A stretch of 57,494 bases of DNA, counting the filler, from Dugesia japonica (lineage: Eukaryota), in NCBI GenBank assembly GCA_001938525.1. It is 5 parts of 5 records of this genome, joined end to end, with 100 filler letters (N's around TTAATTAATTAA, not from the genome) between each part and the next. Parts side by side here need not be neighbours in the genome. Positions count along the whole stretch, not along the records: positions 9,625 to 21,098 come from MQRL01612674.1; 4 more parts are not named here. One strand, written 5' to 3'. Under the pieces are notes generated by a model. That model made no database searches and was not told the origin of the DNA. It worked only from the letters and a program-made list of their open reading frames with translations. Of the stretch, positions 1,656-29,458 are shown one piece after another (within the stretch, counting starts at the first letter, position 1; every line of letters starts with the position of its first letter). A program made the position numbers and the translations under genes.

Positions 1656-4600
1656 AAATACATTTGTAATAATTTAATTTTGTTAAATGTTAGATTTTCT
1701 TCTATTAAATTTTGACATGCTAATTTTTTATTTATTTTGTCAAGTCTTAAATGCCAGATTTTTTCGTTTATGGTTTCATTTTCATTTTCAATTTCATTTT
1801 CATTTTCATNNNNNNNNNNNNNNNNNNNNNNNNNNNNNNNNNNNNNNNNNNNNNNNNNNNNNNNNNNNNNNNNNNNNNNNNNNNNNNNNNNNNNNNNNNN
1901 NNNNNNNNNNNNNNNNNNNNNNNNNNNNNNNNNNNNNNNNNNNNNNNNNNNNNNNNNNNNNNNNNNNNGGTTACATTTCTCACATTCAAATTCATTTCCG
2001 TGTGGCCAAGTCCTTGTTGCATTATCTTCTATTATTCTTTTATCACTGTAACCTGTTAAAGCAATTTTCTTTTGTTGTGTTAATTTTATATCATGGAGTT
2101 CAGATTTTAGTGAATAATTTATTCCATAGATTATTTTCTTTGGATCTTTTAGAACTGAATCAAATTCTCGCATACCGATGGGATTGAAACTTTGAACACC
2201 TTTATGTTTCTTGTTAAAAGATATTTTGTTATCTTTATTTTGATATTCATATGCGTAAGATTTAGGTTTTATAAAATTGCATTTTAAAATTTCAGAATTT
2301 GGCATTTCATCTTTCATTTGGAAAAGATTATCACCAGTTAATGAATTTAGAATTTTAAGGTTATCTTCACCAAGAATCTCGATAAATACGGAATCCGTGT
2401 TTTTAATTATCAACGGAAATCCAGAGTTAAATGTTCCATCTTGAGTTTCAATGTCGTATACTTCTTCTTCGATTTGTCTTAGGAATCTTATATCTTGGAT
2501 CTTATATGAAATATCTTTAGGTTTTATTTCTTTTAATTTATATTGATTTGGAGTGTCTTCTGTAATAATTAAATTCTTACCTAAAGATGTTTCATGAAAA
2601 TATGCTGTGGCTAAAGATATTTTATCTTGATATGAATCTTGTAATATTGTATCTCGAAATTTAGAATTTTGATCTCGAAATGTTGAATCTTGAAATTTAG
2701 CATTTTGACATGTTTCTTGTAATGTTGAATTTTTATTTTTATTTCTAAAAAATTTAAATTTATTGTGTAATAATTCAGTTTCAAGTGTTACATCTTTAGG
2801 TTTAATTTCTTTACCTGTGATATCTAACAATGAATGGTCTTCTGTTACATCAACAATGCCGAGATGAGTTCTAACTCTGTAAATCTTTTTAGTAGTTGTA
2901 TGTTTTATAACTTTTTTCAATGGAACCCAGTTACTTTTAGTCCAAATTTCAAGATTTCCAGGATATGAATAATATTTTTCAAATTCGCATAAAGCAGTGT
3001 CGTTATCATGATCATTGTAATAATGTGGTGATATTTCAGAGATCATTTTTATCATTGGTTTTTTATCTTTTTTATTTCGAAGTAACACTGGAGTATCATG
3101 GGTAACAGAATCAGAATAATGAATTTTATAGTTATCTTTAATTTTTGGTTCTAACTGGTTATATACAAAATTATACATTACTTCTTTAGCATATTCTAGG
3201 ATAGTGAAACCTAGATATGGAAATTTGTTATATTTTAAATTAGTTTTCGCAAGATGTACTGCGCCCATTTTAGATACAATTTCATTGTTTAAAGTGAAAA
3301 TTTTAGAACTTAAATATGTAGGTTTAGCAGCTAATCTTAATAATTGTTTATCTGTTCCAACGATTTCGACATTACAACGGTTTCTGATATTTTCGAGGGT
3401 TTTACCATAGAACGAGTTGTTCATTAATTTGAAAAAGTCGACTCCAAATTCATCTTTGTTTCTTTTTGCTATTGATCTTTGTTCTATATTAAATAAAATG
3501 TAATCTTTTAACCATGTAGATACTGGAAGTTTATATTTTGAATGTATCTTTTTAAGTTTCATTCCTAGTTGTAGATATAGATCTAGAGTTGAACCTAGGA
3601 TGATATAATTTTTCTTGTTAAATTGGTTCATTGTTAATTTTATATTTTCTTTTGTTAATTTTCGTGTAAAGCTTAATTGATAATTAGATAACATTTCATT
3701 TGTGATAAGTATTCTATCAGGTGCTAGTGGGAAATATTTAGTTTTATCGTGGATTTCTCTAGGATAATCAAGATCAACTTCATATAGAAAATTAAAGATT
3801 TCAGTTGAAGGTTCATATTCTAACTTGGTACATTCAATGAATTCACCTGTTGGTAATGGTTTTGTCATGCAAGATGCATAAAGTGAATTTGCATCTAGAT
3901 ATTTTATATAAGTTGGTTTTATTAATTTATTGAGATGGTTATCTAAAAGTTCTAGATCATCAGCTAGAATTATATCAAGGAGATCTTCTTTTTGCGCTTG
4001 GTTTAATCTTCTAGATAGATCGCGGGATTTATCAAATGAAAATACTTGACGTTCACCTTCTTCTCCGGAATAGCCACCTCGTACTCCACGTTCAAATTTT
4101 AGAAATGTATTATAGGTTTTTGGTTTTGCATATTTTAATTTTTGTCTTGTAAATCTCATTCCCGCTTCCCATGTTAAACCCGGCGCAGTGTAACAATAGC
4201 ATGGATCTATTTTATAAAAGTTTAAACATAATACACGAAAGTTTTCAACATAATCTGCGAGAATTAATACATCAAGTTTCATGTAATGTAGCATGTATTG
4301 CCATAGATTTTCATGATGTGAAAAGTCTTCTAAGAATTCTTGATATTCTTGATCAGAGATTCCTTTTTGTTTGAGAACTGTATAAAATTCATCTTGAGTT
4401 GGTATTTTATCAGATTTTAATAATTGCATAACTTCATTCGCATTTTTACCTGTAACATAGTCATATGGAAAAAAGATTTTCTTAGGTTTAAGATTGAATG
4501 AATCCAGTATTTTATGATTATTTATTTTTCCTAGTGTTATTCCCATTTTTTCGATGGTCGTTGGGCATAATCGATATGAATCTAAGAATCTAATATTTTT

Positions 4601-6313
4601 ATATTGAAATGAGATATATTGATCATCGGAATGTGGAATTACTTTTCTTATTTCATTTGGATGTGAATATAAAAGTTGTCTGAAGAATAAATGATTCTCA
4701 TAGCCCATTGCATTATGGAAATAAAATGGGATAAATAGATTGCTTTTAGATTTATCTTGAAGATTGCATTCAGAATGTGCATAACCGCGAAATTCTCCTG
4801 TAAAATGATTATGATCCATTACTGGAGCTGTTGTTGTTAGTTTTTCACAATAGTAACAGTTTTCATTATTATATTCTGGAATGTCTGATGTGCATTCTAA
4901 TTTTAACTTTTTAAAAATTATATCTTTAAATTTTAAATTAATATTTTCAAGGAACTTGATAAATTCATTAACAACATGTTCACCTGAGAACAGATAATAT
5001 TTAGATTCCATGAGATTATTATATTCACTGTGAAGATAGACACCTAGAGATATTGCTTCTTGAGATTTATTTTCTTTTGTGTAAGCTTCGAAATCACCAT
5101 ATAGAATGAATGGTATTTTATTTTTAAAATAGTTCTTTTTAAATTCGAAATAATCTTCTATTGGAAATTTTACTTCAGCTGTTTTCTGGTGGATGCATTC
5201 TTGTTGATGTTTAATTAGAACTTCTTTAGATGAAGATTGATTCATACAACCAAGACATAATTTATTTTTATAAGATGTGTTGAATAAAATTTCAACATTT
5301 CGAACAAGTGAATAGTGATTTTTATAAATTAAGAGATTACATTTATTTTCTTCTGGTGAAGGTTTTGTTTCATAATGTGAAATATAAAGTGATGATAGTT
5401 TAATTTTATCATTTAACTCGAAAACATTTATTTTGTAATCATTTAATTTTTCTAGTTTTTTGATATCATCGATTCTAGCAGGAAAATTGATATTAGTTAT
5501 TTTTAATTCTGATAGATGTGGAATATAATTAGTAACTCTTCTCGCGTTATGAAAAATATATTTATGTGCAAGGACAGAATACAATAAACATTTGTCATCT
5601 TTGTTTTGTATATTAACAATGCCATATTTTTTTGAAAATGGTTCTGGAAGTTCACAATACGTTCCACCTCGTTTTTTATTTTTTTCAAATTTTATTACTT
5701 CAAAATTATAATCAACAATATGATCAATTGTCCAGTTAGATTCTTTCCTTTCTCTTTCATCTATAAAATTTTGCACTTCTTCTATCATCTCGTGTATTTT
5801 ATCTTTAAAACAATCAGATGTATAAATTTTTCTTATTCTTGTGTATGAGTAGTATAATGAAGTGACATCTTCTTTTTTATATAAAGTATTGATGCCAATT
5901 CGTATTTTAAATCTTTGTTCCATTAAATTAAAATCTCGTGTTATTTTTTCTAATTCTGGTAAAATTGGTAATACTATTTTTAATTCATATTCTGAAATGT
6001 TTCTTCCAATTTCTAGTTTTCCATTATTTTGAATTTTAATTTTGTATCCAGGATATGAATTTTCATTAAAGATATCCACAATTTGTAATCCATTTCCCGG
6101 GTCAATGTAATCTTCATCATCACTTTCGCCACATGCGGTTTTTTCCAGATGAAGTTTATAATAATAATCCGTTTTAAATAACTTTTTACATAAGGCACAT
6201 TCAATGTAATCTTCTAAAGAAATTGTATAACATGTTTTAGATCTTACATGTGAATTTAGTGCACTTTGCGTTTTAAATGTTTTATTACAATTAGTACAAA
6301 TATACATGGCCAT
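1634..6313 (-). CDS. Protein-primed family B DNA polymerase (pPolB) precursor containing an intein
   Basis: 1559-aa ORF. Motifs: ExoI ILYGDFEA, ExoII FHNAMGYE, ExoIII YMKLDVLILAD, Pol A YLDANSLYASCM, Pol B KLMNNSFYGK, Pol C YSD/TDS (split). Also N-terminal Zn fingers and CYYC..DHNHFTGEFRGYAHSECN. The C-terminal tail spans an N gap (1810-1968). Confidence 0.95.
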   Translation of the reverse strand: MAMYICTNCNKTFKTQSALNSHVRSKTCYTISLEDYIECALCKKLFKTDYYYKLHLEKTACGESDDEDYIDPGNGLQIVDIFNENSYPGYKIKIQNNGKLEIGRNISEYELKIVLPILPELEKITRDFNLMEQRFKIRIGINTLYKKEDVTSLYYSYTRIRKIYTSDCFKDKIHEMIEEVQNFIDERERKESNWTIDHIVDYNFEVIKFEKNKKRGGTYCELPEPFSKKYGIVNIQNKDDKCLLYSVLAHKYIFHNARRVTNYIPHLSELKITNINFPARIDDIKKLEKLNDYKINVFELNDKIKLSSLYISHYETKPSPEENKCNLLIYKNHYSLVRNVEILFNTSYKNKLCLGCMNQSSSKEVLIKHQQECIHQKTAEVKFPIEDYFEFKKNYFKNKIPFILYGDFEAYTKENKSQEAISLGVYLHSEYNNLMESKYYLFSGEHVVNEFIKFLENINLKFKDIIFKKLKLECTSDIPEYNNENCYYCEKLTTTAPVMDHNHFTGEFRGYAHSECNLQDKSKSNLFIPFYFHNAMGYENHLFFRQLLYSHPNEIRKVIPHSDDQYISFQYKNIRFLDSYRLCPTTIEKMGITLGKINNHKILDSFNLKPKKIFFPYDYVTGKNANEVMQLLKSDKIPTQDEFYTVLKQKGISDQEYQEFLEDFSHHENLWQYMLHYMKLDVLILADYVENFRVLCLNFYKIDPCYCYTAPGLTWEAGMRFTRQKLKYAKPKTYNTFLKFERGVRGGYSGEEGERQVFSFDKSRDLSRRLNQAQKEDLLDIILADDLELLDNHLNKLIKPTYIKYLDANSLYASCMTKPLPTGEFIECTKLEYEPSTEIFNFLYEVDLDYPREIHDKTKYFPLAPDRILITNEMLSNYQLSFTRKLTKENIKLTMNQFNKKNYIILGSTLDLYLQLGMKLKKIHSKYKLPVSTWLKDYILFNIEQRSIAKRNKDEFGVDFFKLMNNSFYGKTLENIRNRCNVEIVGTDKQLLRLAAKPTYLSSKIFTLNNEIVSKMGAVHLAKTNLKYNKFPYLGFTILEYAKEVMYNFVYNQLEPKIKDNYKIHYSDSVTHDTPVLLRNKKDKKPMIKMISEISPHYYNDHDNDTALCEFEKYYSYPGNLEIWTKSNWVPLKKVIKHTTTKKIYRVRTHLGIVDVTEDHSLLDITGKEIKPKDVTLETELLHNKFKFFRNKNKNSTLQETCQNAKFQDSTFRDQNSKFRDTILQDSYQDKISLATAYFHETSLGKNLIITEDTPNQYKLKEIKPKDISYKIQDIRFLRQIEEEVYDIETQDGTFNSGFPLIIKNTDSVFIEILGEDNLKILNSLTGDNLFQMKDEMPNSEILKCNFIKPKSYAYEYQNKDNKISFNKKHKGVQSFNPIGMREFDSVLKDPKKIIYGINYSLKSELHDIKLTQQKKIALTGYSDKRIIEDNATRTWPHGNEFECEKCNXXXXXXXXXXXXXXXXXXXXXXXXXXXXXXXXXXXXXXXXXXXXXXXXXXXXXXENENEIENENETINEKIWHLRLDKINKKLACQNLIEENLTFNKIKLLQMYFNNKHET
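2399..3109 (-). mobile_element. Mini-intein (237 aa, precursor residues 1069-1305) inserted in Pol motif C
   Basis: Block A SVTHDTPVLLR, block B VDVTEDHSLL (TxxH), block F EEVYDIETQDGTF, block G PLIIKN followed by Thr+1. Removal restores YSDTDSVF. No intact LAGLIDADG motifs. Confidence 0.95.
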
Positions 6314-6349
6314 TTTATATAGTAATTATTTAATCATGTTTATATTTTT

Positions 6350-10287: not shown

Positions 10288-11331
10288 TTAGGTTTTACTG
10301 GATATCCAACTGGGCTTTACAGAGTCGCGAGGAATGCTTTGAGGTTCTTGAATTACCAATGGTGTTGGTTTCCTAGGTTGGATTGTAATTATGGAAGGTG
10401 CTGGTGCTAGGTGTGGAACCTGATTGATTATTTTACTTATCCATTCTGGTATTTTGGATTTATCTGGAGCTGATGTGGGTTTCTGGATTATTAAAGATGT
10501 GTATTTTCTTGGTGGACTAGAGATTATTGGTTGCAATTCAGGAGCAGCAGGATTTAGTGTTGATTTAGGAAAATTGAAAGTGGCTAGACCACTTGGTTGG
10601 AAAGGAGTTGTTACCCTTATTGGGTGGGAGATAGGTCGGTGATTTGTATACGATTCCTGAAGTTTCTTAATTTCGGAGAATTGTTCAAATAAGTGTTGCT
10701 GTTTTTCCTTTAATTCTTCCTCTTTCTCATGGTAAAGGTTACGTAACTCAATGATCTCCTGTTCGAGTGCTTCTATATATTGCTGTAGAAATTCATTCCT
10801 TTGCTGGCATTCTTGTATTATAGATTCGAACTCGAAGGACAATTTATCGATACCTGCACGTACACCCTCTCTATTAGCCAAGCTTATCAGAAGCTGATTC
10901 TCGGTAGCAAGGTNGTTCTTTTCGAATTGGGTGTTAAATAGTTTCATTCTGAGGATTTGGGTATTCTCTTGTTCGATAGATAATTTATCCTGAAGTTCCT
11001 TTCTTCTGGGTTCTATCTCTTCGTATTTGCTCTTCTACCTTTGAGCTTGTTTAATGGCGTTTATTTTTGCTCGGTTGGCATCAATGTTACTCTTAATTTA
11101 TTTTTGGTGGGACTGACATGACCGTTTCCTCCTTTCCAATTCCTGGCTGGCTTTCGTTACTTGGCTTTCTAATTTGTTATTATAATTCTGCAATTGTAAG
11201 TTTGAGAGTGCCTCGATTTTGGATTTCAATTTCCATTTTAGGACTTCAGGTACAGTGGTAAGGGTTTGTGTTTGGATCTGTATAATTTGGATCTCATTAC
11301 GCAAGTGAGTGATTAAGTTTTCGTTGTTCAT
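10288..11331 (-). pseudogene. Accessory ORF: long coiled coil plus Pro-rich tail with PAM2-like motif
   Basis: ORFs 11098-11331 and 10288-10947 are in the same frame, separated only by in-frame stops. Heptad-rich E/Q/K/L sequence; STLNPAAPELQP motif. Confidence 0.65.
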
Positions 11332-11429
11332 TTCTAAAATCAGAGAGAGAGATTACTTTATTATAATAACAAGTTTTCAATTATAAGTATATATAATCAT
11401 ACATTATTTACATATTTAGATTTAATTAT

Positions 11430-12629
11430 TTATTGAAATTTTATTCCTAGTGCCCTTCGTTCGATTAACTTCCGACACATAGGGTATTCATTTAAGTTTA
11501 TAGCACAATTATATCAAAATTTTTTGAAATGTCCACATGGTAAAAATACGACCTCGATGGTTTCCACAAGGCAGATCACACAATCATGATCAAGCAATAC
11601 CCATTCTTGTTCATATTTTTCCTGGGGTTCTACTGATCGAAGTGATATTTGATATAATTTGAATAGTGTGATTAACTCGGTGCCTTTCTCTGCAACCGTT
11701 TGTTTTAATAGCTGTTTGATAGTTAACTGATCTAGTTTTAAGATATTAGACAGCCGGTTGACCTGTAATTCAACTGCCATTTCTATTCTGTGGCTAGACA
11801 TATTCCATTCTATTTTACACGTGGTTGGCTTTATTTCTCCCTTATTGATTTGATTTAGTCTTGAGCCTGTTACTCTATGGAATATCGTTGCTGGTAATTT
11901 TTCTATTCCTTTTAATATCAGAGTTTCTCGGTTGCAGGTAGTGCATTTGACAACTTTGTCATTCGCCTTTCGGACGAGGTATAATCCGTCCATTGTCTTG
12001 TCTTTCAAACCTGGTAATTTTTTAAATGTTTTCTCTCTTTCTTCGATATTCCATTCGAGATCTTTTCGTACGTCTACTTCTGCTAAGTTCTTTATAATTT
12101 TACAATATAACTTCTTTGGTTCAATTGTTGTTTTTTCGTTTTCGGGGTTTCTTCCCCTAATTGGTTGAGCTTTGTTATTTACGTTTACATTTAGTAGAAA
12201 AGGACAGGTAGGAAACCACTTCCTATGTGCTCTATTAGGTTGCTCGTTCTTACCCCACATGTGTAGTAAACCTTGACAATATATGCATTTCACTTTATCT
12301 GGTCGCTCCGGGGTACCGACATAGTAAAACCCAGATTTGGCTAAAGCTTCAATCAGTCCATATAGATATCTAGGTAATTCGGATAGTGATTTCTTTCTTA
12401 TGTTTTCGTCACGATATTTTTCGTCGAAAACTTTTATCGTACTATAACACACTCTCTTCCGTATGAAATTTTCTGGTACTGCAAATAAGTTGCAGTAGTG
12501 CATTATGTTTTGTGTTACTGAAGTTTGCTTGACTTCCTCTAGTCCTTTGCTCATACCAAATAATTCAATGTCCGAGTCATTCATTATAATTCTGGCTTCG
12601 TTTGTTGATAAGTCCAAATCGAATTCCAT
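11430..12629 (-). pseudogene. Inhibitor-of-apoptosis (IAP)-like gene: BIR, degenerate BIR, RING
   Basis: BIR: EALAKSGFYYVG..DKVKCIYC..LHMW....AHRKWFPTCPFL. Second BIR-like: REKTF..GLY..VVKCTTC..H. RING: CVICL..VVFLPCGH..(TGA)YNC..YPMCR, read through the TGA at 11516-11514. Intronless. Confidence 0.9.
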
Positions 12630-12867
12630 TATCTACAAAATTTACATTATTGTTTTGGTTATATCATACTATTACATTATTTTCAATTCGGGTCCAATAA
12701 GATGTTTTAGTTTAAATGGGGCATTTATTTAGGTGCTTTTCCATTTTATACCGAATAATAATGTATATAAACCTTTTATTTATTTATTTATTTATCTATT
12801 TATATATATATATTTTTATATATATTTATTTATATATATTTTTTTTAACTTCCCTCTCTCTTAGATT

Positions 12868-13434
12868 TCAGACAAAACTGACTTGGTTGTGGACACTCCG
12901 GGTGTTGAGTGTCTCGATTTCCCATTTTTGTGAATTTACTGATTTTTTAAGGTATTTGAGTTCTTTTGTCTGATCAGAAATTAGGTCGTGTTGTTTGGCT
13001 ACCAACTCCATTGTATAATTTTGCTTTTCTGTAGCAATTTCCAACATTCGTCGATTTTCTATAATTTGTTGACGACACATAAGGGTTTCTGCATATAGAT
13101 TTTCATTTTAAAGTTGAAGAATTTCATTTTTCAGTTCCAATTTGCACCAATCCAAGGGTTTCATTGTTATTAAGGTTTGTATTAATTGATTTTGATTGTG
13201 TTCTAGTTCTTCTAATCGTTGTTGGGTTCATTGAGTTTGGGTTCTGGCGCTATTCCATAATTCTTTCATTTCCTCGTTATGATTTTGCCAGATTTCGTTT
13301 ATCGTTGCTTGTGGGAGTATATTGTTTGTAAGATTATTTATTAGTGGGAAATTTCTGGTGACTAGTGGACTTGCTGCTAAATCAGTTTGGGAGTCCATAA
13401 CTTCATTTTCGGTTGTTGCTTCTTTTTGGTTCAT
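12868..13434 (-). pseudogene. Accessory coiled-coil ORF (~190 aa)
   Basis: ORFs 13228-13464 and 12868-13080 share a frame and are separated by two in-frame stops. ATG at 13434 follows CATTTAG-GA. Confidence 0.6.
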
Positions 13435-13539
13435 TCCTAAATGCGAAACGTTGATTAGTTTCACCGTTATTTCTATTTACATATATAGTTATTAAACAAG
13501 TTTACAATTTACACTATTTACACGTAGTTTCCTTCTATT

Positions 13540-15240
13540 TTAACACACTAATATACCCGGTGCCTGATAAGGTCTAGGCACATATGTGGGTACTCCGCTC
13601 ATTACTGGCCCCAGTGGTAATCCTTCGTAATTTGGTGGAGCTAGTGGTAGATGATGTCTTTTCCGATTATGTTTCTTTGGTTTGGGTCTTGTTTGCTTAC
13701 AGAATTGCACATACAATGTGATTAATATCAGTACCACTATTAGTATGCTCCCTATTATTGCTATATTGTCTGTTCCAGTTTTGGTTGGTACAGAGGTGGT
13801 TACTGGCTCCTTCATGGTAGTGGGTCCACCCCCTATCCTCATGTGATCTTCCGGTGGTTGGTACTTCCTCAGATTTCTCATTAAGTTGTTTAGAAAGTTG
13901 GTTCTTTTTGTTTCCTTTTCTTTGTTGGGAGCTGGAATTGGTGTTTCTGTTGCTGTTGTTGTTGTGGTTTTTTCTGTATTGGTTGTAGTTCTTATTTTAA
14001 TCTTTGGTCTAGTGATGTTCAGTTTTATTCTGACATCTCGATTTATAACTGTTGTGAATTCCATTTCCCACATTTCTGGTCCAAAACTACCCATGTTCAC
14101 TCCTTGTTCATGTAACGCATTTTCTTTGAATCCTGATATTTCTTCATTATACGCCCATCCCCATTGAGCGGTTGAATAGTATTTCTGTGCCGTTAATTGT
14201 TCCTTTTTCTCGTTGGTCCATAGTTGATATGTTTTGTTCATTTTTTTGATCCGTACAGGTCCTGGACCTTCCTGCCAATGAGAACCCCATTTCCCAAATG
14301 TGTATTTCGTTACCGAGTGGAGTCCTTTTCCCCGATTAATGGCTACACCTTTTTGCTCCCTAAATACCCGTTTCTTATCTGTGGATTCTTGGACTATATT
14401 CTTCCAAAATTGAATAGGGAATATGTATTCATTCTGTGGGCAGATTTTCATGCTCTCGTCTCCTTTCCGTTCCCATACCCATCCTCTCTGTCGTGGGTTT
14501 TCTATGATTTAATAAATTAGGAGATTGCGGGCCTGATGCATGTCAAAATTTATTTGGTGTTCTTACTCGCCCTGATCTCTTTTGCGTGTTCCTTGAATTT
14601 CTTGTGTTGCATACATCCACCAGTCCTTCATGTTGAAATGCATTGCCTGACCTTCCACCGGTGCGTCTCATTTAAACCATAGGCTTGCTGTCCACCCATA
14701 CCAAAATAGTAATATTCGACTTCCTTTGGATCCTTCAATGGTAGGTTTTAGCAATATCAACTCGCATCTGTATCCTTCAAAAACTTTTATTTCCCGCTTT
14801 CGCCCGTCTGTGCTCATTGTTCGAATGGTGGTTTTGTGGTCGTCGACACAGACCCTATGTTCTGTTAATATTAGCTCGTTGGTCCAACAATCTTGACATT
14901 TAATCCCCTTCATCACGATTATTAAAATAGTGAGTATGACTTGTCCGTTAGATATTCTATTCTGATTTAAGATCTGTATTTGTTGAATTGCCAGAGTTGG
15001 CAATGCCAACCCAAATAGGATTATCCCTGCAATTCCATATAGCATAATTGATGTTGGACAATCTTTACCCATATTCCCGATTACTTTTATGGTTAACCAG
15101 ATTAATATGCCATAGTCCAAATTTGTGTTGACTACTGCCCATAACAACAAAGAGATTTTAATTATTATTTCCAATGTAATCTCATTCTTGTTTCTTTTGG
15201 TGGACTCGTTTTTTGATTTTCTTGGTTCTGTTTGATCCAC
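13540..15240 (-). pseudogene. Membrane protein region of the polyprotein: hydrophobic segments, Trp-rich ectodomain, Thr-rich stalk, TM helix, PPxY tail
   Basis: ORFs 14668-15240 and 13540-14451 are in frame, separated by three stops. Signal-like VILTILIIVMKGIKC, stalk TTTNTEKTTTTTATET, TM IAIIGSILIVVLILITLYV, tail PPNY. Confidence 0.6.
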
Positions 15241-15246
15241 CTCATC

Positions 15247-16158
15247 TTATATCATTGTCATTTCCATATCTTTCGCCTTTCCCGGCGTTACTCTGACTAA
15301 TTGTCTTTCTCTTCCTTCTATTCCATCTCTTTGGAATTGGAATATTTCTCCTATTGACTTTATTTGTTTTTCCAAGCCCTCCTGTGGATTCATGATACTG
15401 CTTGGTTTAGATTTCCTCCGGTCCAATTTACTTTGGGTAGCTGGTGTGCTCATGCTCCCTGGCAATTGGATCTTCAATGGTTCGTATACTCCAATCCAGT
15501 TCCATTGTACTAGTGTACCGTGAAATAGATGGATGGATGTTAACAATTCTTCACTGCATATTTCGACACAAGATAAACACAACTTTTTTAAGGTGGATTG
15601 CCGGATAGGTGCTTCAATTGGTAGTTCGATTTGTGACCCTTCACAGTCTTTTTTGAACCAGTTTTCTCGTCTTGATAACCATGTTTTCTGGTCGTAAAAA
15701 GCCTTTATAGTGATTTTTAGTATAATTATACATTGTGTACAGTTTCTTTCTAGCTGAGTTAGTGACAGTGGACATTTTATCTTTTTGATATGGGCACAAT
15801 TCTCCTCTGTTCTCGGTATTTGGATTCCTTGATATATGATTGGATAGATTGTAGTGGCGCTCATAGCCTCTATCATAAGTGGTCTGTGCATTTGGTTACC
15901 TTAATTAAAAGATATTGTTTTAGCTTTTTGTTTCATAACGATTTCTTTATTATTAACCAATGCCACACTTTGCTGTCTTTGCTGAGATTGAATATTATTT
16001 GGTGTATGTTCGATTCTCCTCAATTTACTTGTTTGTTCTATCACCAAGATACCTGGTGGGGTATTTATGATTGTATTATTCTCCTTAGTTTTTTCCTGGT
16101 TGACGGCGTGTTTAGAATCATCTGCCTTTAACACCCTATTTATCTTTTGTAATTCTGA
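15247..16158 (-). pseudogene. Post-integrase polyprotein extension with a Cys/His-rich domain of unknown function
   Basis: In frame with the integrase. Contains CAH..C..CTQC..C..CLSC..C..H..H. Confidence 0.45.
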
Positions 16159-17610
16159 TTATGTACTTTCTGAATTTGCAGCAGGTAGACTCGTTTCTTG
16201 TTTTACCGTCTCCGTTATTGACCCTTCCCCGTTTCCTTCAAACTCAGCGTCCTCGCTGAGACCGTTTTTCTTTATTATTGTTTCTGTACTCTTCCCTGAT
16301 GAGAGATTTATTCGTGGTTTTCTAAGTACCATCATGGCTAGTTGTGATCGTAATGGATAGCTGTGTGATATATTCAGTTCTAGACTCTCCGACTTGCGTG
16401 GCCTACCTGGCCCTCTACGTTCCGTCGTAGTAGGCTCGGCGCTTGTGGCTGGCACCACTTCTTCTGTCACCGCTGCCTTTTTGCACAAGTTAGCGTGGTA
16501 TATCTTTGGTTTCTCTAATAGGTTCCCTTTCTTTCGAACCTTGAGATTAGTTTCCGTTACTTCAATTACGTCATAAGGTCCTTGCCATGGCCTTTGTAAT
16601 GTTGATGTCGTACCGACACAAATTTCCGGTAAATTTATCAATACCATGTCGCCTTTTTTGAAGGAATGTTGGGCTGCTGATTTATCATGTAAATCCTTAT
16701 AGCTCTCCTGGTAGAATCCGACATTCTCCTTGGCTTGTTTCCATATTTTCTGCATGGTCTCCTTGAAATTTGCCGCAAAATCGGTTTCGTCTTGATATTG
16801 TGTTATTGGTGGTTGGTATTCCAGGTCAATAGGCATGTTGCATTCTCTGCCATACATGAGACTAAATGGAGTATATTTTGTGGCAGGATGCACACTCATT
16901 CAGTAAGCGAATAGACATAGCTGAATGTGTTTATCCCAGTTATTCTGTTCCTTTTGTGCATAACTAGACAACATATTGATTAGAGTTTTATTGAATCTTT
17001 CTGTTAATCCATCCGTCTGTGGATGATAAGGTGATGTCCGCAACTGGTGTATTTTGAGAAAGTTTGATATTTCTGCTAATATATTACTCATGAAGTTTTT
17101 TCCTTGGTCAGTCAATATTTTCTTGGGTGTACCATATCTACTGAAAGATTTTCGTACCAAAATGTCTGCTATTGTGGTTGCTTTCTGATTCTTCGTCGGA
17201 AATGCCTCTGGGAATTTGGACAGATAATTCATTATGGTAAGTATGTAAATATTCCCACTTAGCGTTGGTGGTAGTGGTCCTACCACGTCCATAGCGATAA
17301 TTTCCATTGGGGCTGCTGGTACCGCGATTAATTTTAATAACACTTTTACTCTTTTGCCTGTTTCTCTTTTGGCCGCACATATTTTACATTTAGCAATCCA
17401 TTCTTTTACTGATTCCGTCATATGTGGCCAATAATATTTCTGCCTTAATTTGGATTCGGTCTTCTTATGAGACATGTGTCCGCCGAGTACACTATTGTGA
17501 TATTGCTCGAGTAATTTATCTCGCCTTGCTTTAGGGATAACTAACACGGTATTATCTCCGTCCTGAGCTGTCAGCCATTCTTTAGTGAATGCATATCGTC
17601 CGCCATTGCT
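16159..17610 (-). pseudogene. Gypsy integrase (HHCC, DDE core, GPY, AT-hook)
   Basis: H..GGH...CKIC; IAMDVVGPLP; ILTDQGKNF; PYHPQTDGLTERFN; PWQGPY; RRGPGRPRK. One in-frame TGA at 16902-16900. Confidence 0.95.
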
Positions 17611-17614
17611 CTTT

Positions 17615-18330
17615 TCCTTTATCTGATATCAGATGTCCTAAGTATGTCACCTTATTTTTGGCCCATTCGCATTTAGTAGGTTTCACTTTTAAGTTCCGTT
17701 TACGAAGTCTTACAAACACACTACGTAGGTCATTGAGGTGTCCTTAAAAGGTTGGCGAATAGATTAGCAGGTCATCGTATATACGCCATACATTGAGATA
17801 TACCATGTGTTACGTAATTCATCATGCGTTGAAAAGAGGCTGGTGCATTGGTAAGCCCAAATGGCATACGGATAAATTGATATAAGTCTTTGCCTGTGGA
17901 AAAGGCCGTTTTCTCTCTATCTTCTGGTTTGATTTTTATTTGCCAGTAGCCGCTTCGCAAATCCAAATATTTTAGCATTATATAGTAATTGCAATAATTC
18001 GTTGATATCTGGCAATGGATATGTGTCTTTCTTACTTTGGGCATTTAATCTTCTGTAATCAATGCAAAATCTTTGTGTGCCATCCTTTTTATCTACTAAC
18101 ACCACTGGCGATTGCCATGGTGAGCAGCTAGGTTCTATTACCCCGATTTTTACCAATTTGGCTGTTTCCTTATTTGCAAATTCTTTTTTCTCCACTGTCA
18201 TGGCGTATGGTTTCTGTTTGCACGGGGTTTCATCGGTTAGTGGAATGGTATGCATCGTCGCTGTGCACATACCCAGCTCTTCATTGGTCCATGCAAAAAT
18301 GTCTCTAAATTCCTCTATCAGTTGCAATAT
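17615..18330 (-). pseudogene. Gypsy reverse transcriptase, frameshifted; thumb and RNase H deleted
   Basis: SPWQSPVVLVDKKDGTQRFCIDYRRLN, LDLRSGYWQI, KTAF, RMPFGLTNAPASFQR, frameshifted AYI/DDLLIYS, KCEW..VTYLGH. The sequence then jumps directly into integrase-proximal sequence. Confidence 0.95.
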
Positions 18331-18739
18331 TGGTTGTTTCTGGTCTTCTGATAAAGTTTCCGTCTCTACTTTAAATGTTCTGTCGATTTCTGGTTCAGTG
18401 GCTATTTCTTCTATCACTTCGAGCTCCGGTTCGATGGGGGTTAGGGTACCCATCCTGGAGTTTGGCTTGATTGTGATATCTTTTTCTGTGAAATTAACTT
18501 AACTAACTGGTACTTCCCCACTTTTGTTGACCGTGGTTATTCCTCCTGCTGTCGGTAGCTCGTACTGGTGTGCAAATCCGTCATACGGTTCGAAATAACA
18601 ATCTCCTTCATAGGCACTTTTGGTACTGACTACACAATATACTTGACATCTACTAGGTACCAAAATCTTCTCTGTAGTGAATACTTCATGATCCTTCACA
18701 TGGGTATAACCTTCCAATGATTGTAATCGTAATGTTGAG

Positions 18740-19050
18740 AAGTTTAATATACAGTTTTTCATCAGAACGGGAAGAATGTCTATTCCTAGTATACACTGTC
18801 TCATCATTTCTACTATGATCATATTGTGTTTAATTCTATCATCCNNNNNNNNNNNNNNNNNNNNNNNNNNTCCAAAAATTTTGAGGCTACTACCATTTGC
18901 TACATCTGCTGTAGTATTTGTGGGTAGTATGTTTTTGTACTCGGTTATTGCAATTTCATCAATTGAAAACAACGATATGGTTGCTCCTGTGTCCAATAGA
19001 GCTGTTATAGGTCGGCAGTTGATTTTAACCATAATGGTTAATACTGGTCC
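18740..19050 (-). pseudogene. Retropepsin (aspartic protease) domain 2
   Basis: ALLDTGATISL...ANG...CILGIDIL. Confidence 0.9.
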
Positions 19051-19339
19051 ACCGTTGAAACCTGCGCAAACCACATCTGAAGAGTTTGGACTGATGTTTA
19101 ATTGTGTTTTGTTTTTCCATTTTGGTTCTCGTTCTTGAAACCGTATCCAATCGTTCCTTATCATGGTGTTTGTATTGGTATATCTCCGATGGTCTTGTGT
19201 TGGGTTATTTCGTTCATTCTGGCCGGTTAAGCGTTGCTGCAGCTGGTTGGGTGTTGGTTGATTCCATTGTTGTGGTCGCTTCAATTTAGTTATTATTCGA
19301 GTTTTCTGGTAGCTTATCGGAGAATACTACTGATCATAA

Positions 19340-19670
19340 TTTTCCCGTATTGTTAATTTTCTCAAATCCAATATTCCCTCCGGACACAGGCGTGGCAGAA
19401 GATCCAATCCTAATAAACAGTCGAATGCTAATTCATTCATTATCTGCACTTTATGCCAGAACCGTGTTCCGTCGCTTTCTATTGCACATATTGCTTCTCC
19501 AATGGGTGAGATTTTTTCTCCAGAGGCCGTGATAATAACTCCTTTATTGATTGTTATTCTAAGCAGACGATAATCTTCTAATATCATTTTGTGGACTAAC
19601 GTCGTACTTGCCCCGGTATCAATGATAGCTTTTACCCAGTTTCCGTCGATTTTTATCCTTTTCTGTAATA
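19340..19670 (-). pseudogene. Retropepsin (aspartic protease) domain 1
   Basis: AIIDTGASTTL...TASGE...CLLGLDLL. Confidence 0.9.
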
Positions 19671-20309
19671 ATTTTGCTCTCTGAGAAATCATTATACATA
19701 CCATCTGGGTTTCTAATTTATGATCCTCAGCGATTTGGTTATTCGGGGAACGCAAGTTTTGATTGGTCACTCTTTGGTCCATAGTTGATACATTATTCTC
19801 TGTTAACAGGGCCACATTGGGAGCTTGTGGTGGACTTATATACGGGTTGTTGTATAGGGGACCTGGTGCCCATACTTGTTGGGATGGTTGGTTCATGGGT
19901 TGCCAATCATATTGTGGATAAGCGTTATAATACATTTGTGCTGGTGCTGGTGTGCTTTCTCCTCCTCCGAATCTTAGCGCGTTTTTCAGTCGTTGCATTT
20001 TGCTGATTTTTTCGTATTGCTGCCTTTTGAATTCCAAATCGTATTCCATGGAAGTTTTATAACTAGGTACATGAGGTGTTCCACTGCTTTCTCCTCTGTC
20101 ATCGTCGCTGCTACTACTACTTTCATCTTTATTCTTAAACCGTTCTTTGAACTGGTTAAAATATGATATTTTCTTTTTAGCATTGCTCATTTCTTCGCAT
20201 AATAATCGGAGTTTCATTATGACCTCCTTGTCTGATCCTCTTATTTGTCCGAGCTTCCGAATGAATCTCTTTACTCTGTCGATGTCTTTGGAGTGACTAT
20301 TAANNACCA

Positions 20310-21098
20310 TAGTTTTGGCTAAAAATGGAAATATTCCTGTTACCATTTTCCAATTCACCTTTTTCTCTCTTTTGTATATATCAAGACATGCGAACAATTG
20401 AGTAATCACTACCCGGGTTACCGAAATTATCAGCATAACCCCCAACAATCCTGCCATTGCTTGACCAAATATTATAAATCTTCCCCACATTTTCCGCATG
20501 ACATTTTCGGTGGCTTTTTGGAAATGATCCGCGGATAAGAGTGCATCGTAGTTTACCCGTCCATCCATGTTAGTCCCACTGGTTAGTTGTACTATGTTTG
20601 ATAGAATCTGCATCCTTCGGACTGGAAATAACATATATTCTCTGGCTTTCTCTAAGTCTTCTTTACTATAGATTCTTCCTTTATTTACGTCGATTGGGGT
20701 GAATTGCATACCCCGTTTAGTCGTAACATTGAAAATTTTCGTGGTTCGACTCCTACTGCCATTCGTTGAGGAAATCCTATCCATGAAAAATCTGTCATTT
20801 CGTATTGTAGTCCAAATACATTGGAGCAATTTATGATATTCGGCCTATAGCCCAATGGCGATATTTTTCGAGTGATTGGTTGTACATACCGCTTTTCATT
20901 GTTGTGGATGATTTCTATCTCGTTGTAGCAGTGCTTTGGATTGGAGGAAAATTCTGCATCTATCACCTTGCATTTGTATAGGTACATTACCTCCCCTATC
21001 ACTCGACCGAATTGTCCTTTCTCCAACGGAAGTAGTGGGGTGACACTATCAGGGTTTGTAACTGCCATCGCTAATTTTGTTTTTAATTTATTTTTTTT
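20310..21098 (-). pseudogene. C-terminal half of a chuvirus (Jingchuvirales)-like glycoprotein / env
   Basis: GEVMYLYKC..V..CYNE....YVQPITR..G...C....Y...W, then after a frameshift near 20720: G.IYS.EDL..AR.YMLFP.RR and MWGRFIIFGQAMAGLLG plus TM. Pattern recognised from chuviral G proteins. The 5' part is cut by the scaffold end. Confidence 0.75.
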
Positions 21099-21142
21099 NN
21101 NNNNNNNNNNNNNNNNNNNNNNNNNNNNNNNNNNNNNNNNNN

Positions 21143-21154
21143 TTAATTAATTAA
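21143..21154. other. Artificial scaffold linker TTAATTAATTAA
   Basis: Same 12-mer within N runs. Confidence 0.95.
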
Positions 21155-21713
21155 NNNNNNNNNNNNNNNNNNNNNNNNNNNNNNNNNNNNNNNNNNNNAT
21201 CGATGGGATGGATTGTCGTTGTTGATTAGCTAAATTAAATGACGAAAACACTTATTATGATTCGATTTGTCATAATTGATTCAACTCTGCTTTTTATGGC
21301 AACCCCCGACTATTCAAAGAATCTCTCATTTTGGGAACAGGGTTTTATCGAGAAATTTACACCAGGGTAATATGTTAGACCAGTCAGGGTTGCATCTAAA
21401 CAAATTAAGGGAAGTTCCAGGTAGGATCCAGACGCGACGACTCAAAATGTNNNNNNNNNNNNNNNNNNNNNNNNNNNNNNNNNNNNNNNNNNNNNNNNNN
21501 NNNNNNNNNNNNNNNNGGTTAAAGAGCGTTATTAATCATTTAAATAAGAATACTCGTAATGTCCATTTATGGAAATTGAATTTATTTCTGCTATATTATA
21601 TTGTTGGGTATTATTGAGTATATAAATCGGTAAACCGGATAATTTACACTCGGGTAATCGAAATTCTACTAAGTCTAAGTTATTAGGAATTATAGCATAG
21701 CAATATTAACAGG

Positions 21714-22936: not shown

Positions 22937-23719
22937 TTTTCTTATATTGATTCAAACATTTATATACAAAAATCGGCAGTAAATAACCATAAAACTAAAT
23001 AAATATATAAACCAGCATATATCGTTTGTATTTACAACAGAAAAACATTTAAAGCATCTTCAAACTTATAAGAACCTGGCGACTAGGTGTAAGTTAAATA
23101 TAGTAATAACATTTAATACATCCGTTCAATTTTTACTTTATTTTGATGCTTCATTGTGGAGTAAGTTCGACCCATACTGTTTCCAGAACATCTTTGACCT
23201 CTTAAACAGGCCCTTCTCCCGGTTGGCATACATCCTAAAGATGTCGATCAAGAGTGCTGTAATTATTTCTGTAAATTCGTGCTTTCAGTGCGCTGACTTC
23301 TCCTTCATCTAAAGTAATTTTTCTTCTGCATCTGGTGGCAGAGCTTGTGATAGAATTTCAATACAGCAACTATTATCATTGTCACTTTCATTGCGATCAG
23401 TAGTCTGAGATATGTTTACTTCATTATCAGATTGGAAACATTTTGTTGTGATTTAGATTCTTTTAACTCCTTTTTGAATATCAGTTTGATATTATTAGCA
23501 ACGGATTTATGTTTGTAGTTCGAATCAGACTTAATGATCTTGATGTAATTAATCTAATCAAATAAATAAAAATAATATTAAGAATTTAAGATATGATTAA
23601 AAGCAGCTGTTATCTATGATTCACAAAGCTCAATCTAATCTTGCTAGATAAAAAAATTTAAATTGTTTATTTCAATTACCAATGTAAGGATAGTTTTGTT
23701 TTAATTTTAGTTCTTTGAA

Positions 23720-24770
23720 GACGTACTGAAAGTATATGTTAGTTTATTTACAAATGTTCCCTTAGATGAAACTATTAATCTTTAATTTGTTAAATGGAAC
23801 TTATTTTAAGAAATTATTTACTTTTGCCAAGTCTAATGTACATTTTTTGTTTAATGATGAATGGCGCAAACAAATTTATGGGGTTGATGTAGGTTCATCT
23901 CTTGTTCCTACTTTAGCTTCTTTGTTTCTTTCGAATATTGAGAAAAAGATTGATTTGCTGACTNNNNNNNNNNNNNNNNNNNNNNNNNNNNNNNNNNNNN
24001 NNNNNNNNNNNNNCAACGGATTTATGTTTGTAGTTCGAATCAGACTTAATGATCTTGATGTAATTAATCTAATCAAATAAATAAAAATAATATTAAGAAT
24101 TTAAGATATGATTAAAAGCAGCTGTTATCTATGATTCACAAAGCTCAATCTAATCTTGCTAGATAAAAAAATTTAAATTGTTTATTTCAATTACCAATGT
24201 AAGGATAGTTTTGTTTTAATTTTAGTTCTTTGAAGACGTACCTAAAGTATATATTAGTTTATTTACAAATGTTCCGTTAGATGAAACTATTAATCTTTAA
24301 TTTGTTAAATGGGACTTATTTTAAGAAATTATTTACTTTTGCCAAATCTAATGTACATTTTTTGTTTAATGATGAATGGCGCAAACAAATCTATGAGGTT
24401 GATATAGGTTCATCTCTTGTTCCTACTTTAGCTTCTTTGTTTCTTTCGAATATTGAGAAAAAGATTGATTTGCTGACTGGAACTAAACCATTTGTGTATA
24501 TGCTTTGGATGATATCATTCTGATTTTTAATAATACGTCTATTGAGTTTTTAAATTATATGAATTTTTTACATAATAACATTAGCTTCACTTGGAAAATG
24601 GATTATAAATTTAAACTTTCCTTGATATCTTGATAGAAAGAAAATCTAATCATTATGAAAGAGATATCACAAACCAACATAAACAGGTTTGAATTCTTCT
24701 GGTAGGTTTTGTGAATCCGGTACATGTATAACATGATTAAAAGACTGTTGTATAGATTGTGGACTCCCTC
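23720..24770 (+). pseudogene. Penelope-like reverse transcriptase remnant, partly duplicated across a gap
   Basis: SLFTNVPLDET-like segment, HFLFNDEWRKQIYGVDVGSSLVPTLASLFLSNIE, a degenerate YxDD and LHNNISFT. Confidence 0.7.
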
Positions 24771-27019: not shown

Positions 27020-29458
27020 TCACCATTCAATATATTTTGATGTTTCTATGTTATCTACAAATTGAAAATCTTTATATTGTAAAGGCTGTGTTAAGGCCCA
27101 ACCATATAAATTATTTAAATAAATGTAAAGCAGTGAGATATTCTCATCTGCCTGAACGTAATTGGTATTGACAAATGTCATGTATCCACGAATTCCCGAC
27201 TTAAATAGCCGATGGATTTCTGGATCCTCTAGCAAATTCCAACTGAATATCCATCGTCTTGAGAGCTCTTGACCAGCTCAATTCCGGTAAGGAAACCAAT
27301 CTAAGTATCTCCAGTCCATGCTCCTCAAGTGCCTTTCTTCTTAATGTTTCAAACACATCAGCCAACAAATAAATGTCTAGCTTCATATTCTCCAGCAGAT
27401 TATTACTTCCAGATTTGACCTATGCTAACTTTGTAATTTCATATTCGGAATCTGTGATTTCTGACCAGGGTAGACATGTTTCATTAATCAGCATCTCATA
27501 AGACGTTGCGAATTTTTAAGGAAATATGCCTTTACCCTTGTGTCCATATTGCGGAAATTCTGATGCTGTCAATGTACATTTCTCAAGTGTTGCAGTCAAT
27601 GACGCCAAGAAACTGCTTAGAAATTGTTATGAATCAATGAATCGCACTGTAATATGTGCGAACCACCAACATGTACAAACATTGCAAGAAATTTTTCTTT
27701 TGTCTGTTTAATCGGCTTGACATTCCAATGGTTAAACTGATTCAAGGCACACTTGATAATATAATACGAATCATAACCCTTAAAGTTATGAAATACCACT
27801 GGCAACTCTATTCTGATCTTCCGAGATAAGTTGCACTGATTGCACGCAGCTCCAAGGTACTTGCCGGAAAAATGGTCATGATTCCGAACTAGTATTTTAT
27901 TTGCCTTTTCACACATGTAACAATGTATACTATTCATAAATACCCCCTGTTCTGATGTTGACAAATTCATTTCCATTCTCATTCATCTTTTACCAGGGTG
28001 CAACCATATTTTTCGCCAACTGATCAATGCACTGGAAAAACTAAACCATACAATTTTCTTCAGCAAAAGAATAATATTTGCATTTTTTCGTACAGTACAA
28101 CAATGGAACTAGCAAAAGCCCTACAGCTATTGGAACATGTTTTACTCTATCATCATCTTCTGGGATCAGGATTGCTTCAATATCTGCATAAATAACAAAC
28201 GCTGTTATTGTTTTTCCAAAATCCTTGAACCGCAATTCCTTATCTTCCGGCATTGTATACAAGGTTATTTCAGTGATTATGTAACATCAAATGTAGCCTG
28301 TGAATAAAATCCGTGAAGACACTTAGGACACCATTTTCTTTCTATTCGATATTTCAGAGTCCGATCCTTCAAACTTAATAAACGATCTAAATTTACCACA
28401 GCTGTGTAATGAAAGTTTTGCACATTTTCCAAAATCAGTAAATTCAGAGTACGTCCATTTGGGTTTTTCGATAGGAAAATTACATCCCCATATGGATTTT
28501 TGTACAAAATCGCGTCATCTTCTTCATCTACCAAATCATTATATTTAAATACCGTGATGGACAAATCGTTTCTCCTTTCAAACTCTGGAATATTGATTAG
28601 CTTCGTCGGCATTTTCTGGTCATCGTAAAGCAAATCATTTAGGAAGCATTCATATTTTTGCGGACGATCACGATGATCATATTTTAATACTGCCAGTATT
28701 CTGTATACGAAACACATTATCTGTGTTGTGAACATTCACTATTGCATAGAATCTATGTAATGATCCAGTACTTTTGATATATGATCGTCCATATAAATAA
28801 ATTACTGAAGAAAATTTCACCATAATAAATCTCAACTGCATATTTTGATATATGATCGTCCATATAAATAAATTACTGAAGAAAATTTCACCATAATAAA
28901 TCTCAACTGCAGTATTCTTTTGATCTTCCATCTACTACTTAATTCAGAATACGTGAAAATTTCTTCATTTGCTTTTTCTGTTATTTTCTGTAAAAACTAA
29001 TCTGAATATATCATGGCTTTGTATGACCATCTCCTTCTCTTGATCATCCTCCTCTTTTCGAATTCGACATGAATTCCAAATTGAACTTNNNNNNNNNNNN
29101 NNNNNNNNNNNNCTTCCTCGATCTTATTTCTGATATAAACAGGCACATAAACACTTTTCATTTCCCACTGCTCTACCTTAAACTGAAGACTAACATAGGC
29201 TTCATTAAAATCAGTTTTCCTGACATATTCACCAATAATTGTTGTTATTCTTTTCTTCTCCTTTTCCACATGTTCTTCCCAAAATTGATATTTTCGTTTT
29301 CTTATCTCCATATTTTTCTTAAAAGATTGTTGCTCATCATCAATTTGTTTATAGCAAATTGATGATGAATCAACCAATCTGCCTATTGAAAAAGAATTCT
29401 TTTTATTAAATGTAAGTTGTTGTTTATTATCATCAGATGATGATGATAAATCAAGCAA
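27020..29458 (-). pseudogene. Second, heavily degenerate Polinton pPolB (N-terminus through motif A)
   Basis: Fragments collinear with the intact pPolB: CFVYRILA/FHYTAV, FVIYADIEA, CYMC..NHDHFSGKYLGAACNQCN..VFHNFKGYDS, MKLDIYLLADVFE, GIRG, NNLYGWALTQPL. Many frameshifts and a ~68-bp tandem duplication at 28772-28911. Confidence 0.9.

What the first reader, a model, noticed from the sequence alone, without database searches (positions are those of the whole stretch)
18499..21098. Chuvirus-like glycoprotein fused upstream of pol in a Gypsy polyprotein
Seen: the glycoprotein C-terminal half, with TM, continues in one open frame (to 19327) through a linker into an aspartic protease, then via single in-frame stops into a second protease and RT. 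Established: env genes of LTR elements normally lie downstream of integrase, and chuviral G capture is known for BEL/Pao elements in insects. Inference: an independent capture of a negative-strand RNA virus fusogen by a Gypsy element, in an unusual env-before-pol position; a candidate infectious invertebrate retrovirus lineage.
Basis: partly seen in the sequence, partly recalled or inferred. Interest (0 to 1): 0.8.

Follow-up and report, generated by a model that had tools for sequence, protein, structure and literature searches.

The report
Decayed Burro-type envelope-before-pol retrotransposon
A broken copy of an abundant virus-like jumping gene, likely from a planarian flatworm, carries part of a virus-type membrane-fusion protein joined directly in front of its replication enzymes; the layout is real, but it is already published for the planarian Burro elements.

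Summary
The observation mostly holds. On the minus strand, the C-terminal half of a gB/chuvirus-type class III glycoprotein (PF24664; the fold matches herpes gB domain IV) runs through a membrane helix and linker into two aspartic proteases, a dUTPase-like segment, RT and integrase. One correction: the glycoprotein is split by a frameshift near 20,710. RT is also frameshifted, RNase H is deleted, and the 5' part is lost in an assembly gap. It is not a nested accident: intact single-ORF relatives have the same order, and the window's glycoprotein and integrase both group with them. It is not new either. In-frame env between gag and pol was described for planarian Burro elements (PMC6431247), and GAG-ENV-POL gB-type Gypsy elements for flatworms, nematodes and bryozoans (PMC13524379), where env is judged ancient rather than a recent chuvirus capture. 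The scan found this layout before on other DNA (e1-8072000, e1-8073080). This copy cannot make the polyprotein; infectivity of the lineage is untested. Leftover interest: tandem proteases, a post-integrase membrane protein unlike the relatives', and an IAP gene.

The parts
21099..21198 (.). Assembly gap that cuts the element; gag, the signal peptide, the N-terminal half of env and the 5' LTR are not in the window
   Evidence: N runs; glycoprotein homology reaches the gap edge
20718..21095 (-). Env piece 1: end of the central helix plus gB domain IV-like beta domain
   Evidence: PF24664 profile 343-461, E 1.9e-15; model pLDDT 85; gB domain IV Z 6.2; chu-like G TM-score about 0.75
20269..20717 (-). 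Env piece 2 (after a frameshift near 20,710): C-terminal ectodomain, membrane-proximal region, transmembrane helix (20,484-20,416) and start of the tail
   Evidence: PF24664 profile 458-579, E 1.6e-19; frame switch in tblastn; hydropathy
19660..20268 (-). Low-complexity linker, in frame between the env tail and protease 1
   Evidence: translation
19375..19659 (-). Aspartic protease 1 (DTG at 19,623); in-frame stop at 19,327-19,329 follows
   Evidence: PF13975 E 4.4e-7
18757..19035 (-). Aspartic protease 2 (DTG at 18,996; 26-N gap inside); 26% identical to protease 1
   Evidence: PF00077 E 4.7e-5; pairwise BLAST
18440..18702 (-). dUTPase-like segment, with an in-frame stop at 18,499-18,501
   Evidence: aligns with relatives; profile's top 9 of 10 PDB hits are dUTPases but at E 0.16-0.46
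17615..18300 (-). Reverse transcriptase, frameshifted near 17,965 and 17,790; connection and RNase H deleted at about 17,615
   Evidence: tblastn with intact relatives; PF00078 E 1.9e-12 on the middle piece
16460..17613 (-). Integrase (H2C2 zinc finger, core, C-terminal domain), one in-frame stop at 16,902
   Evidence: PF17921 E 2.7e-19, PF00665 E 5.7e-13
13540..16459 (-). In-frame extension after integrase ending in a predicted type I membrane protein (hydrophobic segments 15,180-14,983; Thr-rich stalk; transmembrane helix 13,779-13,690; short tail with PPNY); several stops
   Evidence: 7 stops in 1,357 codons from integrase start to tail end, against 117 and 72 in the other frames; no informative Pfam or PHROG family
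11430..12632 (-). Intronless IAP-like ORF (BIR + RING; stop inside the RING), likely accessory cargo of the element
   Evidence: PF00653 E 1.4e-16; PDB IAP hits; same strand and GC block as the element; link to the element not shown in other copies
10288..11391 (-). Broken coiled-coil-like ORF, possible accessory gene (a second one lies at 12,871-13,485)
   Evidence: translation by eye; no family above cut-off for the 10,291-11,034 piece

Best explanation
This is a decayed, 5'-cut copy of a multi-copy Gypsy retrotransposon of the Burro-like gag-env-pol type, likely in a planarian, whose intact relatives encode a gB-type fusion glycoprotein inside one long reading frame ahead of protease, RT and integrase. 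Shown: the domain order, the class III fold match, the breaks in this copy, and intact single-ORF relatives with gag, CCHC knuckles, G, 1-6 proteases, RT, RNase H, integrase and a post-integrase membrane segment. Inferred mechanism for intact elements: the polyprotein is made on the ER. A hydrophobic segment before G likely acts as an internal signal peptide, so host signal peptidase would free gag in the cytosol and send the G ectodomain into the lumen. The G helix returns the chain to the cytosol, where the attached proteases would cut pol off the env tail, so gag, env and pol come in fixed amounts and pol starts out at the membrane where particles would bud. G would then fuse particles with other cells. 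A second membrane protein after integrase and anti-apoptotic cargo (IAP here, Bcl-2-like in relatives) would aid attachment and host-cell survival. This copy is predicted to be dead.
For: Collinear PF24664 hits above cut-off. Model of the window's own piece matches gB domain IV and chu-like G; a near-complete natural relative matches gB at E 4e-14. 13 of 16 G-bearing hits scanned have G followed by a protease in one protein. P0121, P0129, P0272, P0274, L001 and L002 carry G to integrase in one ORF, collinear with the window. The window's integrase falls in a 12-row set (SH-aLRT 96) with 4 of 4 G-fused polyproteins. Its G falls in a 25-row set (97) with 13 of 13 protease-fused G rows. Contigs of 4 of 4 DNA runs cover 30 of 30 bins, mostly at 85-95% identity, which points to many diverged copies. 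Same layout in print: PMC6431247 section 7; PMC13524379. Hydrophobic segments before G in L002, P0272, P0129, P0121 and P0136.
Against: No Burro/GYPSM1 or Smed_errantivirus sequence could be aligned directly; the published env rows cover the N-terminal part that the window lacks. The host is inferred, not tested. Gag, LTRs and size cannot be seen in the window (no LTR pair). No listed contig piece bridges env helix to protease 1 in other copies of this exact family (longest record shown 388 nt). The gB match of the window piece is Z 6.2, under the tool's caution line of 8. Both trees are quick, unrooted and without bootstrap. The hydropathy scan missed the pre-G segment in several relatives at the threshold used. 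Topology, processing and cell entry are inferred only.
Confidence: 0.88

Rival explanations
1. Recent, independent capture of a chuvirus glycoprotein by a Gypsy element, founding a new infectious lineage.
For: The nearest viral structures are chu-like and related negative-strand virus glycoproteins; a named Chuviridae G is a sequence hit at E 2.9e-9. PMC13524379 says GAG-ENV-POL elements are not monophyletic, so more than one origin of the order is possible.
Against: The window's G is 33-49% identical to most retroelement-fused G proteins (29% for the most distant) against 25% for the named chuvirus G, and it groups with them, away from that G. The fused lineage is deeply diverged, so any capture is old and shared. 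The layout is already published.
Confidence: 0.06
2. One-off nested insertion or misassembly that placed a viral glycoprotein fragment (EVE) in front of an ordinary Gypsy pol.
For: The assembly is gappy here, and no listed contig spans env helix to protease.
Against: The env-linker-protease stretch is one open frame. Independent natural proteins, including the nearest relative P0125, share the fusion. G and integrase point to the same lineage. G, linker and protease 1 are all heavily covered in 4 of 4 DNA runs.
Confidence: 0.02
3. The same gag-env-pol kind, but a separate lineage from Burro (for example in another invertebrate), so it works like Burro without being one.
For: The window's integrase has a long end branch and at most 56% identity to relatives. 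Its post-integrase protein is unrelated to theirs (best E 0.02). The relatives carry no trustworthy host names.
Against: A BIR domain, a dUTPase-like segment between protease and RT, and relatives with ubiquitin-like and Bcl-2-like domains before env match the Burro description. Unchecked scan notes call this genome planarian.
Confidence: 0.1

Closest known systems
Burro / GYPSM1 giant Gypsy-like LTR retrotransposons of planarians (Arkhipova and Yushenova 2019, PMC6431247, section 7 read; Grohme et al. 2018 not held, known only through it)
   Same: Env in frame ahead of protease in one polyprotein, with env hits to mononegavirus fusion proteins; dUTPase-like segment between protease and RT; BIR domain; high copy number. 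The paper also notes decaying Burro fragments with stops and frameshifts in a third dugesiid species.
   Different: This copy is broken, lacks RNase H and is cut at a gap. Two proteases in tandem (not mentioned in section 7). BIR lies in a separate ORF about 4 kb downstream of integrase, whereas the section lists it among ORF1 motifs. Sequence identity to Burro was not measured.
HSV/gB-type GAG-ENV-POL errantiviruses of Platyhelminthes, Nematoda and Bryozoa (Chary and Hayashi 2026, PMC13524379; Smed_errantivirus_1-6)
   Same: Ty3/gypsy pol with a gB-type class III env placed before pol; multi-copy (1-215 intact copies for the six S. mediterranea entries).
   Different: Those are intact elements; this one is not. 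Their published env rows do not overlap the part held here, so no direct comparison was possible.
Mosquito BEL/Pao elements with Chuviridae-like glycoprotein (Dezordi et al. 2020, PMC7642597; search listing only, plus its description in PMC13524379)
   Same: Same glycoprotein family on an LTR element.
   Different: Different LTR superfamily; here the glycoprotein is fused in frame ahead of a Gypsy pol.
Jingchuvirales/Monjiviricetes G and herpesvirus gB (class III fusogens)
   Same: PF24664 match; domain IV fold.
   Different: No RNA-virus genes were seen nearby; the C-terminal tail continues into proteases.

Membership tests
HSV/gB-type GAG-ENV-POL Ty3/gypsy (errantivirus in the broad sense of PMC13524379) | Ty3/gypsy pol order PR-RT-(RH)-IN | tested here: met
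   RNase H is deleted in this copy only relative to intact relatives
HSV/gB-type GAG-ENV-POL Ty3/gypsy (errantivirus in the broad sense of PMC13524379) | gB-type class III env | tested here: met
   PF24664 above cut-off; fold matches
HSV/gB-type GAG-ENV-POL Ty3/gypsy (errantivirus in the broad sense of PMC13524379) | env upstream of pol | tested here: met
HSV/gB-type GAG-ENV-POL Ty3/gypsy (errantivirus in the broad sense of PMC13524379) | gag upstream of env, and flanking LTRs | tested here: inconclusive
   5' part lost at an assembly gap; no LTR pair in the window. Gag/CCHC present in relatives L002, P0132, P0123
Burro / GYPSM1 | env in frame within one polyprotein with protease and pol | tested here: met
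   Env tail to protease 1 is one open frame; single ORFs in relatives
Burro / GYPSM1 | dUTPase-like segment between protease and RT | tested here: inconclusive
   Top 9 of 10 PDB hits of the 7-row profile are dUTPases, but at E 0.16-0.46; 1 of 7 members hits PF00692 at E 0.042
Burro / GYPSM1 | BIR / apoptosis- and ubiquitin-related cargo | tested here: met
   BIR E 1.4e-16 about 4 kb downstream of integrase, though its link to the element is not shown in other copies; weak Bcl-2 (E 1e-3) and ubiquitin (E 0.018) hits in relatives
Burro / GYPSM1 | Giant size (over 30 kb with LTRs; ORF1 about 4,900 aa) | not testable with these tools
Relatives reach 3,700-4,844 aa
Burro / GYPSM1 | RT/IN phylogenetic placement with named Burro elements; planarian host | not testable with these tools
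   No named Burro sequence was available to the tools; host rests on base composition, element type and unchecked scan notes
Chuviridae endogenous viral element (recent capture) | G nested among chuvirus glycoproteins | tested here: not met
   The window's G groups with retroelement-fused G (SH-aLRT 97); the single named Chuviridae row is outside. Quick unrooted tree, and most other rows are unnamed

The most novel reading that the evidence does not exclude
Burro-type elements are true infectious retroviruses of planarians that build a two-protein entry machine from one polyprotein: a gB-type fusogen tethered to tandem proteases, plus a second, swappable surface protein after integrase that picks the target cell. 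This subfamily carries an undescribed version of that second protein together with its own IAP.
Probability: 0.25. Interest if true: 0.55.

Novelty: new member of a known kind. Interest (0 to 1): 0.2.

Why it matters
The open question it touches is whether gB-type env lets invertebrate Gypsy elements move between cells; PMC13524379 states that the transmission mechanism is unknown outside Drosophila. A broken copy cannot answer that. The variable number of proteases (1-6) and the non-homologous post-integrase membrane protein are the parts most worth a specialist's look.

Tried and rejected
The word-indexed search for longer relatives of the G-protease ORF found none among 6,316 candidates; the full HMMER scan found them. 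The window's G piece 1 has no sequence match in PDB. No relative was found in viral contigs. RNA: no RNA holder was listed. Three raw RNA runs gave 0, 16 and 2 laid reads, nearly all partial, and one guessed-RNA contig run gave 98 short pieces; the organism's presence in those runs was not shown, so this is no test of expression. That protein has no homologue among 497 candidates of near length (322-aa piece only) and no informative Pfam or PHROG family. No LTR pair was found; the polypurine-tract scan gave only five unranked candidates. Grohme et al. 2018 is not held. My own protease HMM was seeded from the same proteins, so protease counts are taken from Pfam instead. A search for Dugesia japonica with gypsy and envelope returned 0 papers. 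A search with the phrase 'multiple aspartic protease' showed 0 occurrences in the 15 listed papers. Since Grohme et al. and the figures of PMC6431247 and PMC13524379 were not seen, I do not claim that tandem proteases are unpublished. No complex prediction was run, because two retropepsins would tend to pass by likeness to solved dimers.

Full report
Observation. The finding lies on the minus strand of an approximately 11.4-kb block of raised GC (0.32-0.41 against mostly 0.16-0.30 around it) that runs from about 9,700 to an assembly gap at 21,099. Pfam finds two collinear pieces of a Monjiviricetes fusion glycoprotein (PF24664): 21,095-20,688 (profile 343-461, E 1.9e-15) and the frame 20,844-19,330 (profile 458-579, E 1.6e-19). 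The second frame continues through a hydrophobic helix and a linker into an aspartic protease. A second protease, 26% identical to the first, lies between in-frame stops at 19,329 and 18,501. The frame has 2 stops in 921 codons against 81 and 61 in the other frames. Further on, RT is frameshifted twice, connection and RNase H are missing (about 47 codons where 7 of 7 intact relatives have 298-324 aa), and integrase follows.

What the glycoprotein is. I folded the window's piece 1 with a 47-row alignment (pLDDT 85). Among 48,161 PDB representatives the top five matches were herpesvirus gB, led by pseudorabies gB domain IV (Z 6.2, rmsd 5.1, 122 residues), and the best unrelated row had Z 2.8. 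Z 6.2 is below the tool's caution line of 8. In BFVD, 23 matches reached E 0.001, led by chu-like and related negative-strand virus glycoproteins at TM-scores near 0.75. A near-complete natural relative (P0135, pLDDT 80) matched HSV-1 gB at E 4e-14 and Tacheng tick virus 4 G at E 3e-44. It is a gB-type class III fusogen homologue; fusion activity is not shown.

Is the fusion a one-off? No. HMMER against 1.84 billion representatives gave 164 hits, 150 listed. I scanned 16 of the top G-bearing hits, chosen for score and length: 13 of 16 have G followed by a protease in the same protein, 6 of those 13 have two or more proteases, two end soon after the membrane helix, and one is a stand-alone glycoprotein whose cluster holds beetle proteins. 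P0121, P0129, P0272 (3,003 aa) and P0274 (4,844 aa) run from G to integrase in one chain and are collinear with the window. A metagenome scan gave 2 confirmed loci of 200 pattern matches. L002 is one 3,703-codon ORF with CCHC knuckles, a weak ubiquitin-like hit, G, two proteases, RT, RNase H, integrase and a terminal membrane segment; L001 is similar with three proteases. In an integrase tree (window plus the top 60 full-length rows of 127 hits) the window falls in a 12-row set with SH-aLRT 96 that holds 4 of 4 G-fused polyproteins. In a tree of the G C-terminal part (105 rows; 43 short or near-duplicate rows dropped) it falls in a 25-row set with SH-aLRT 97 that holds 13 of 13 protease-fused rows, next to P0125, while the single named Chuviridae G lies outside. 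Both trees are quick and unrooted, so they show shared lineage, not the donor. Contigs of 4 of 4 DNA runs (at most 3 studies, two organism labels) cover 30 of 30 bins of 12,900-21,095, mostly at 85-95% identity with transition-rich differences, which points to a large diverged family. Summed depth is not a copy number, and no listed piece bridges the env helix to protease 1. The RNA runs gave no usable test.

How it most likely works. Shown: order, folds, breaks and intact relatives. Inferred from membrane-protein topology: a hydrophobic segment before G (seen in L002, P0272, P0129, P0121 and P0136, missed in others at the threshold) serves as an internal signal, so signal peptidase separates gag from env. 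The env helix returns the chain to the cytosol, where the linked proteases release pol. This would fix the gag:env:pol ratio and hold pol at the budding membrane. Tandem proteases might supply both halves of the dimer in cis, which is untested. After integrase the frame continues into a predicted second type I membrane protein, a slot also filled in relatives but with unrelated sequence; earlier scan notes call the relatives' version fibronectin-like, which I did not test. An intronless BIR-RING gene follows. With two stops, three frameshifts and no RNase H between env and integrase, this copy is predicted to be non-functional.

Comparison with what is known. Arkhipova and Yushenova 2019 (PMC6431247; section 7 read in full) describe planarian Burro/GYPSM1 with env in frame between gag and pol, call it the first such case, and report hits to fusion glycoproteins of arthropod and fish mononegaviruses, a dUTPase-like segment between protease and RT, BIR, BCL2-like and ubiquitin-like motifs, and decaying fragments in Dugesia japonica. 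Chary and Hayashi 2026 (PMC13524379; abstract, passages, first parts of sections 5 and 9, rows of supplementary files; figures not seen) report HSV/gB-type GAG-ENV-POL elements in Nematoda, Bryozoa and Platyhelminthes, including six in Schmidtea mediterranea with up to 215 intact copies. They note that this glycoprotein resembles Chuviridae envelope genes and argue for an ancient origin rather than recent viral capture. Sacco et al. 2022 (nematodes) was seen only as a citation there, Dezordi et al. 2020 only as a search listing, and passages of PMC8532177 show BURRO1 RNA rising after smedwi-2 knockdown. Grohme et al. 2018 is not held. The window meets the testable features of the gB-type gag-env-pol class. 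For Burro proper, in-frame env and BIR are met, the dUTPase-like segment is suggestive but weak, and size, LTRs, gag and direct sequence placement could not be tested. The planarian host is an inference from composition, element type and unchecked scan notes. The scan has reported this layout on other DNA.

Verdict. This is a real feature, a decayed and divergent member of a published kind. The env-before-pol arrangement and the chuvirus-like env are already explained; independent recent capture is unlikely (0.06) and artefact very unlikely (0.02). Interest 0.2. The boldest reading left open is that these elements are infectious planarian retroviruses with a two-protein entry system and swappable cargo (probability 0.25, interest 0.55 if true). 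This broken copy cannot test that.

Noticed in passing
window 1,634-6,325 (-): A 1,563-codon ORF with C2H2 fingers, endonuclease VII and a protein-primed-type DNA polymerase B (PF03175 E 3.5e-17), so likely a Polinton/Maverick. By eye, about 240 aa with intein-like ends interrupt the polymerase's last catalytic motif (roughly 2,400-3,110). Pfam did not confirm an intein; the motif labels are recalled.
   Followed up: partly
window 27,219-28,735 (-): Decayed fragment related to that polymerase ORF (tblastn E 2e-11).
   Followed up: no
window 13,540-15,250 (-): The post-integrase membrane protein has no similarity to the equivalent region of 9 relatives (best E 0.02), although several relatives have hydrophobic segments there too. 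It looks like a swapped cargo slot. PPNY in the tail resembles a late-domain motif (label recalled; may be chance).
   Followed up: partly
window 11,430-12,632 (-): Intronless BIR-RING IAP gene in the element's GC block.
   Followed up: partly
L001 10,617-12,104 and L002 12,085-13,470: Both intact relatives carry a downstream ORF with a weak RNase T-type exonuclease hit (E 1.4e-5 and 1.1e-3) where the window has an IAP.
   Followed up: no
L001 2-10,279; P0274; P0121: Protease domains are multiplied (Pfam counts 2-6) and also occur after integrase; L001 and P0274 have extra hydrophobic segments between proteases.
   Followed up: partly
P0129 (HBK71150.1) and P0003: Animal-type retroelement polyproteins are labelled as Flavobacteriaceae and Turicibacter MAG proteins, likely bin contamination.
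   Followed up: no
window 51,656-52,090 (+): CENP-B/Tc5 (pogo-like) transposase DNA-binding remnant.
   Followed up: no
window 23,499-23,963 / 24,014-24,478 and similar pairs: Near-identical duplicates on either side of 50-N gaps; probably assembly overlap artefacts.
   Followed up: no
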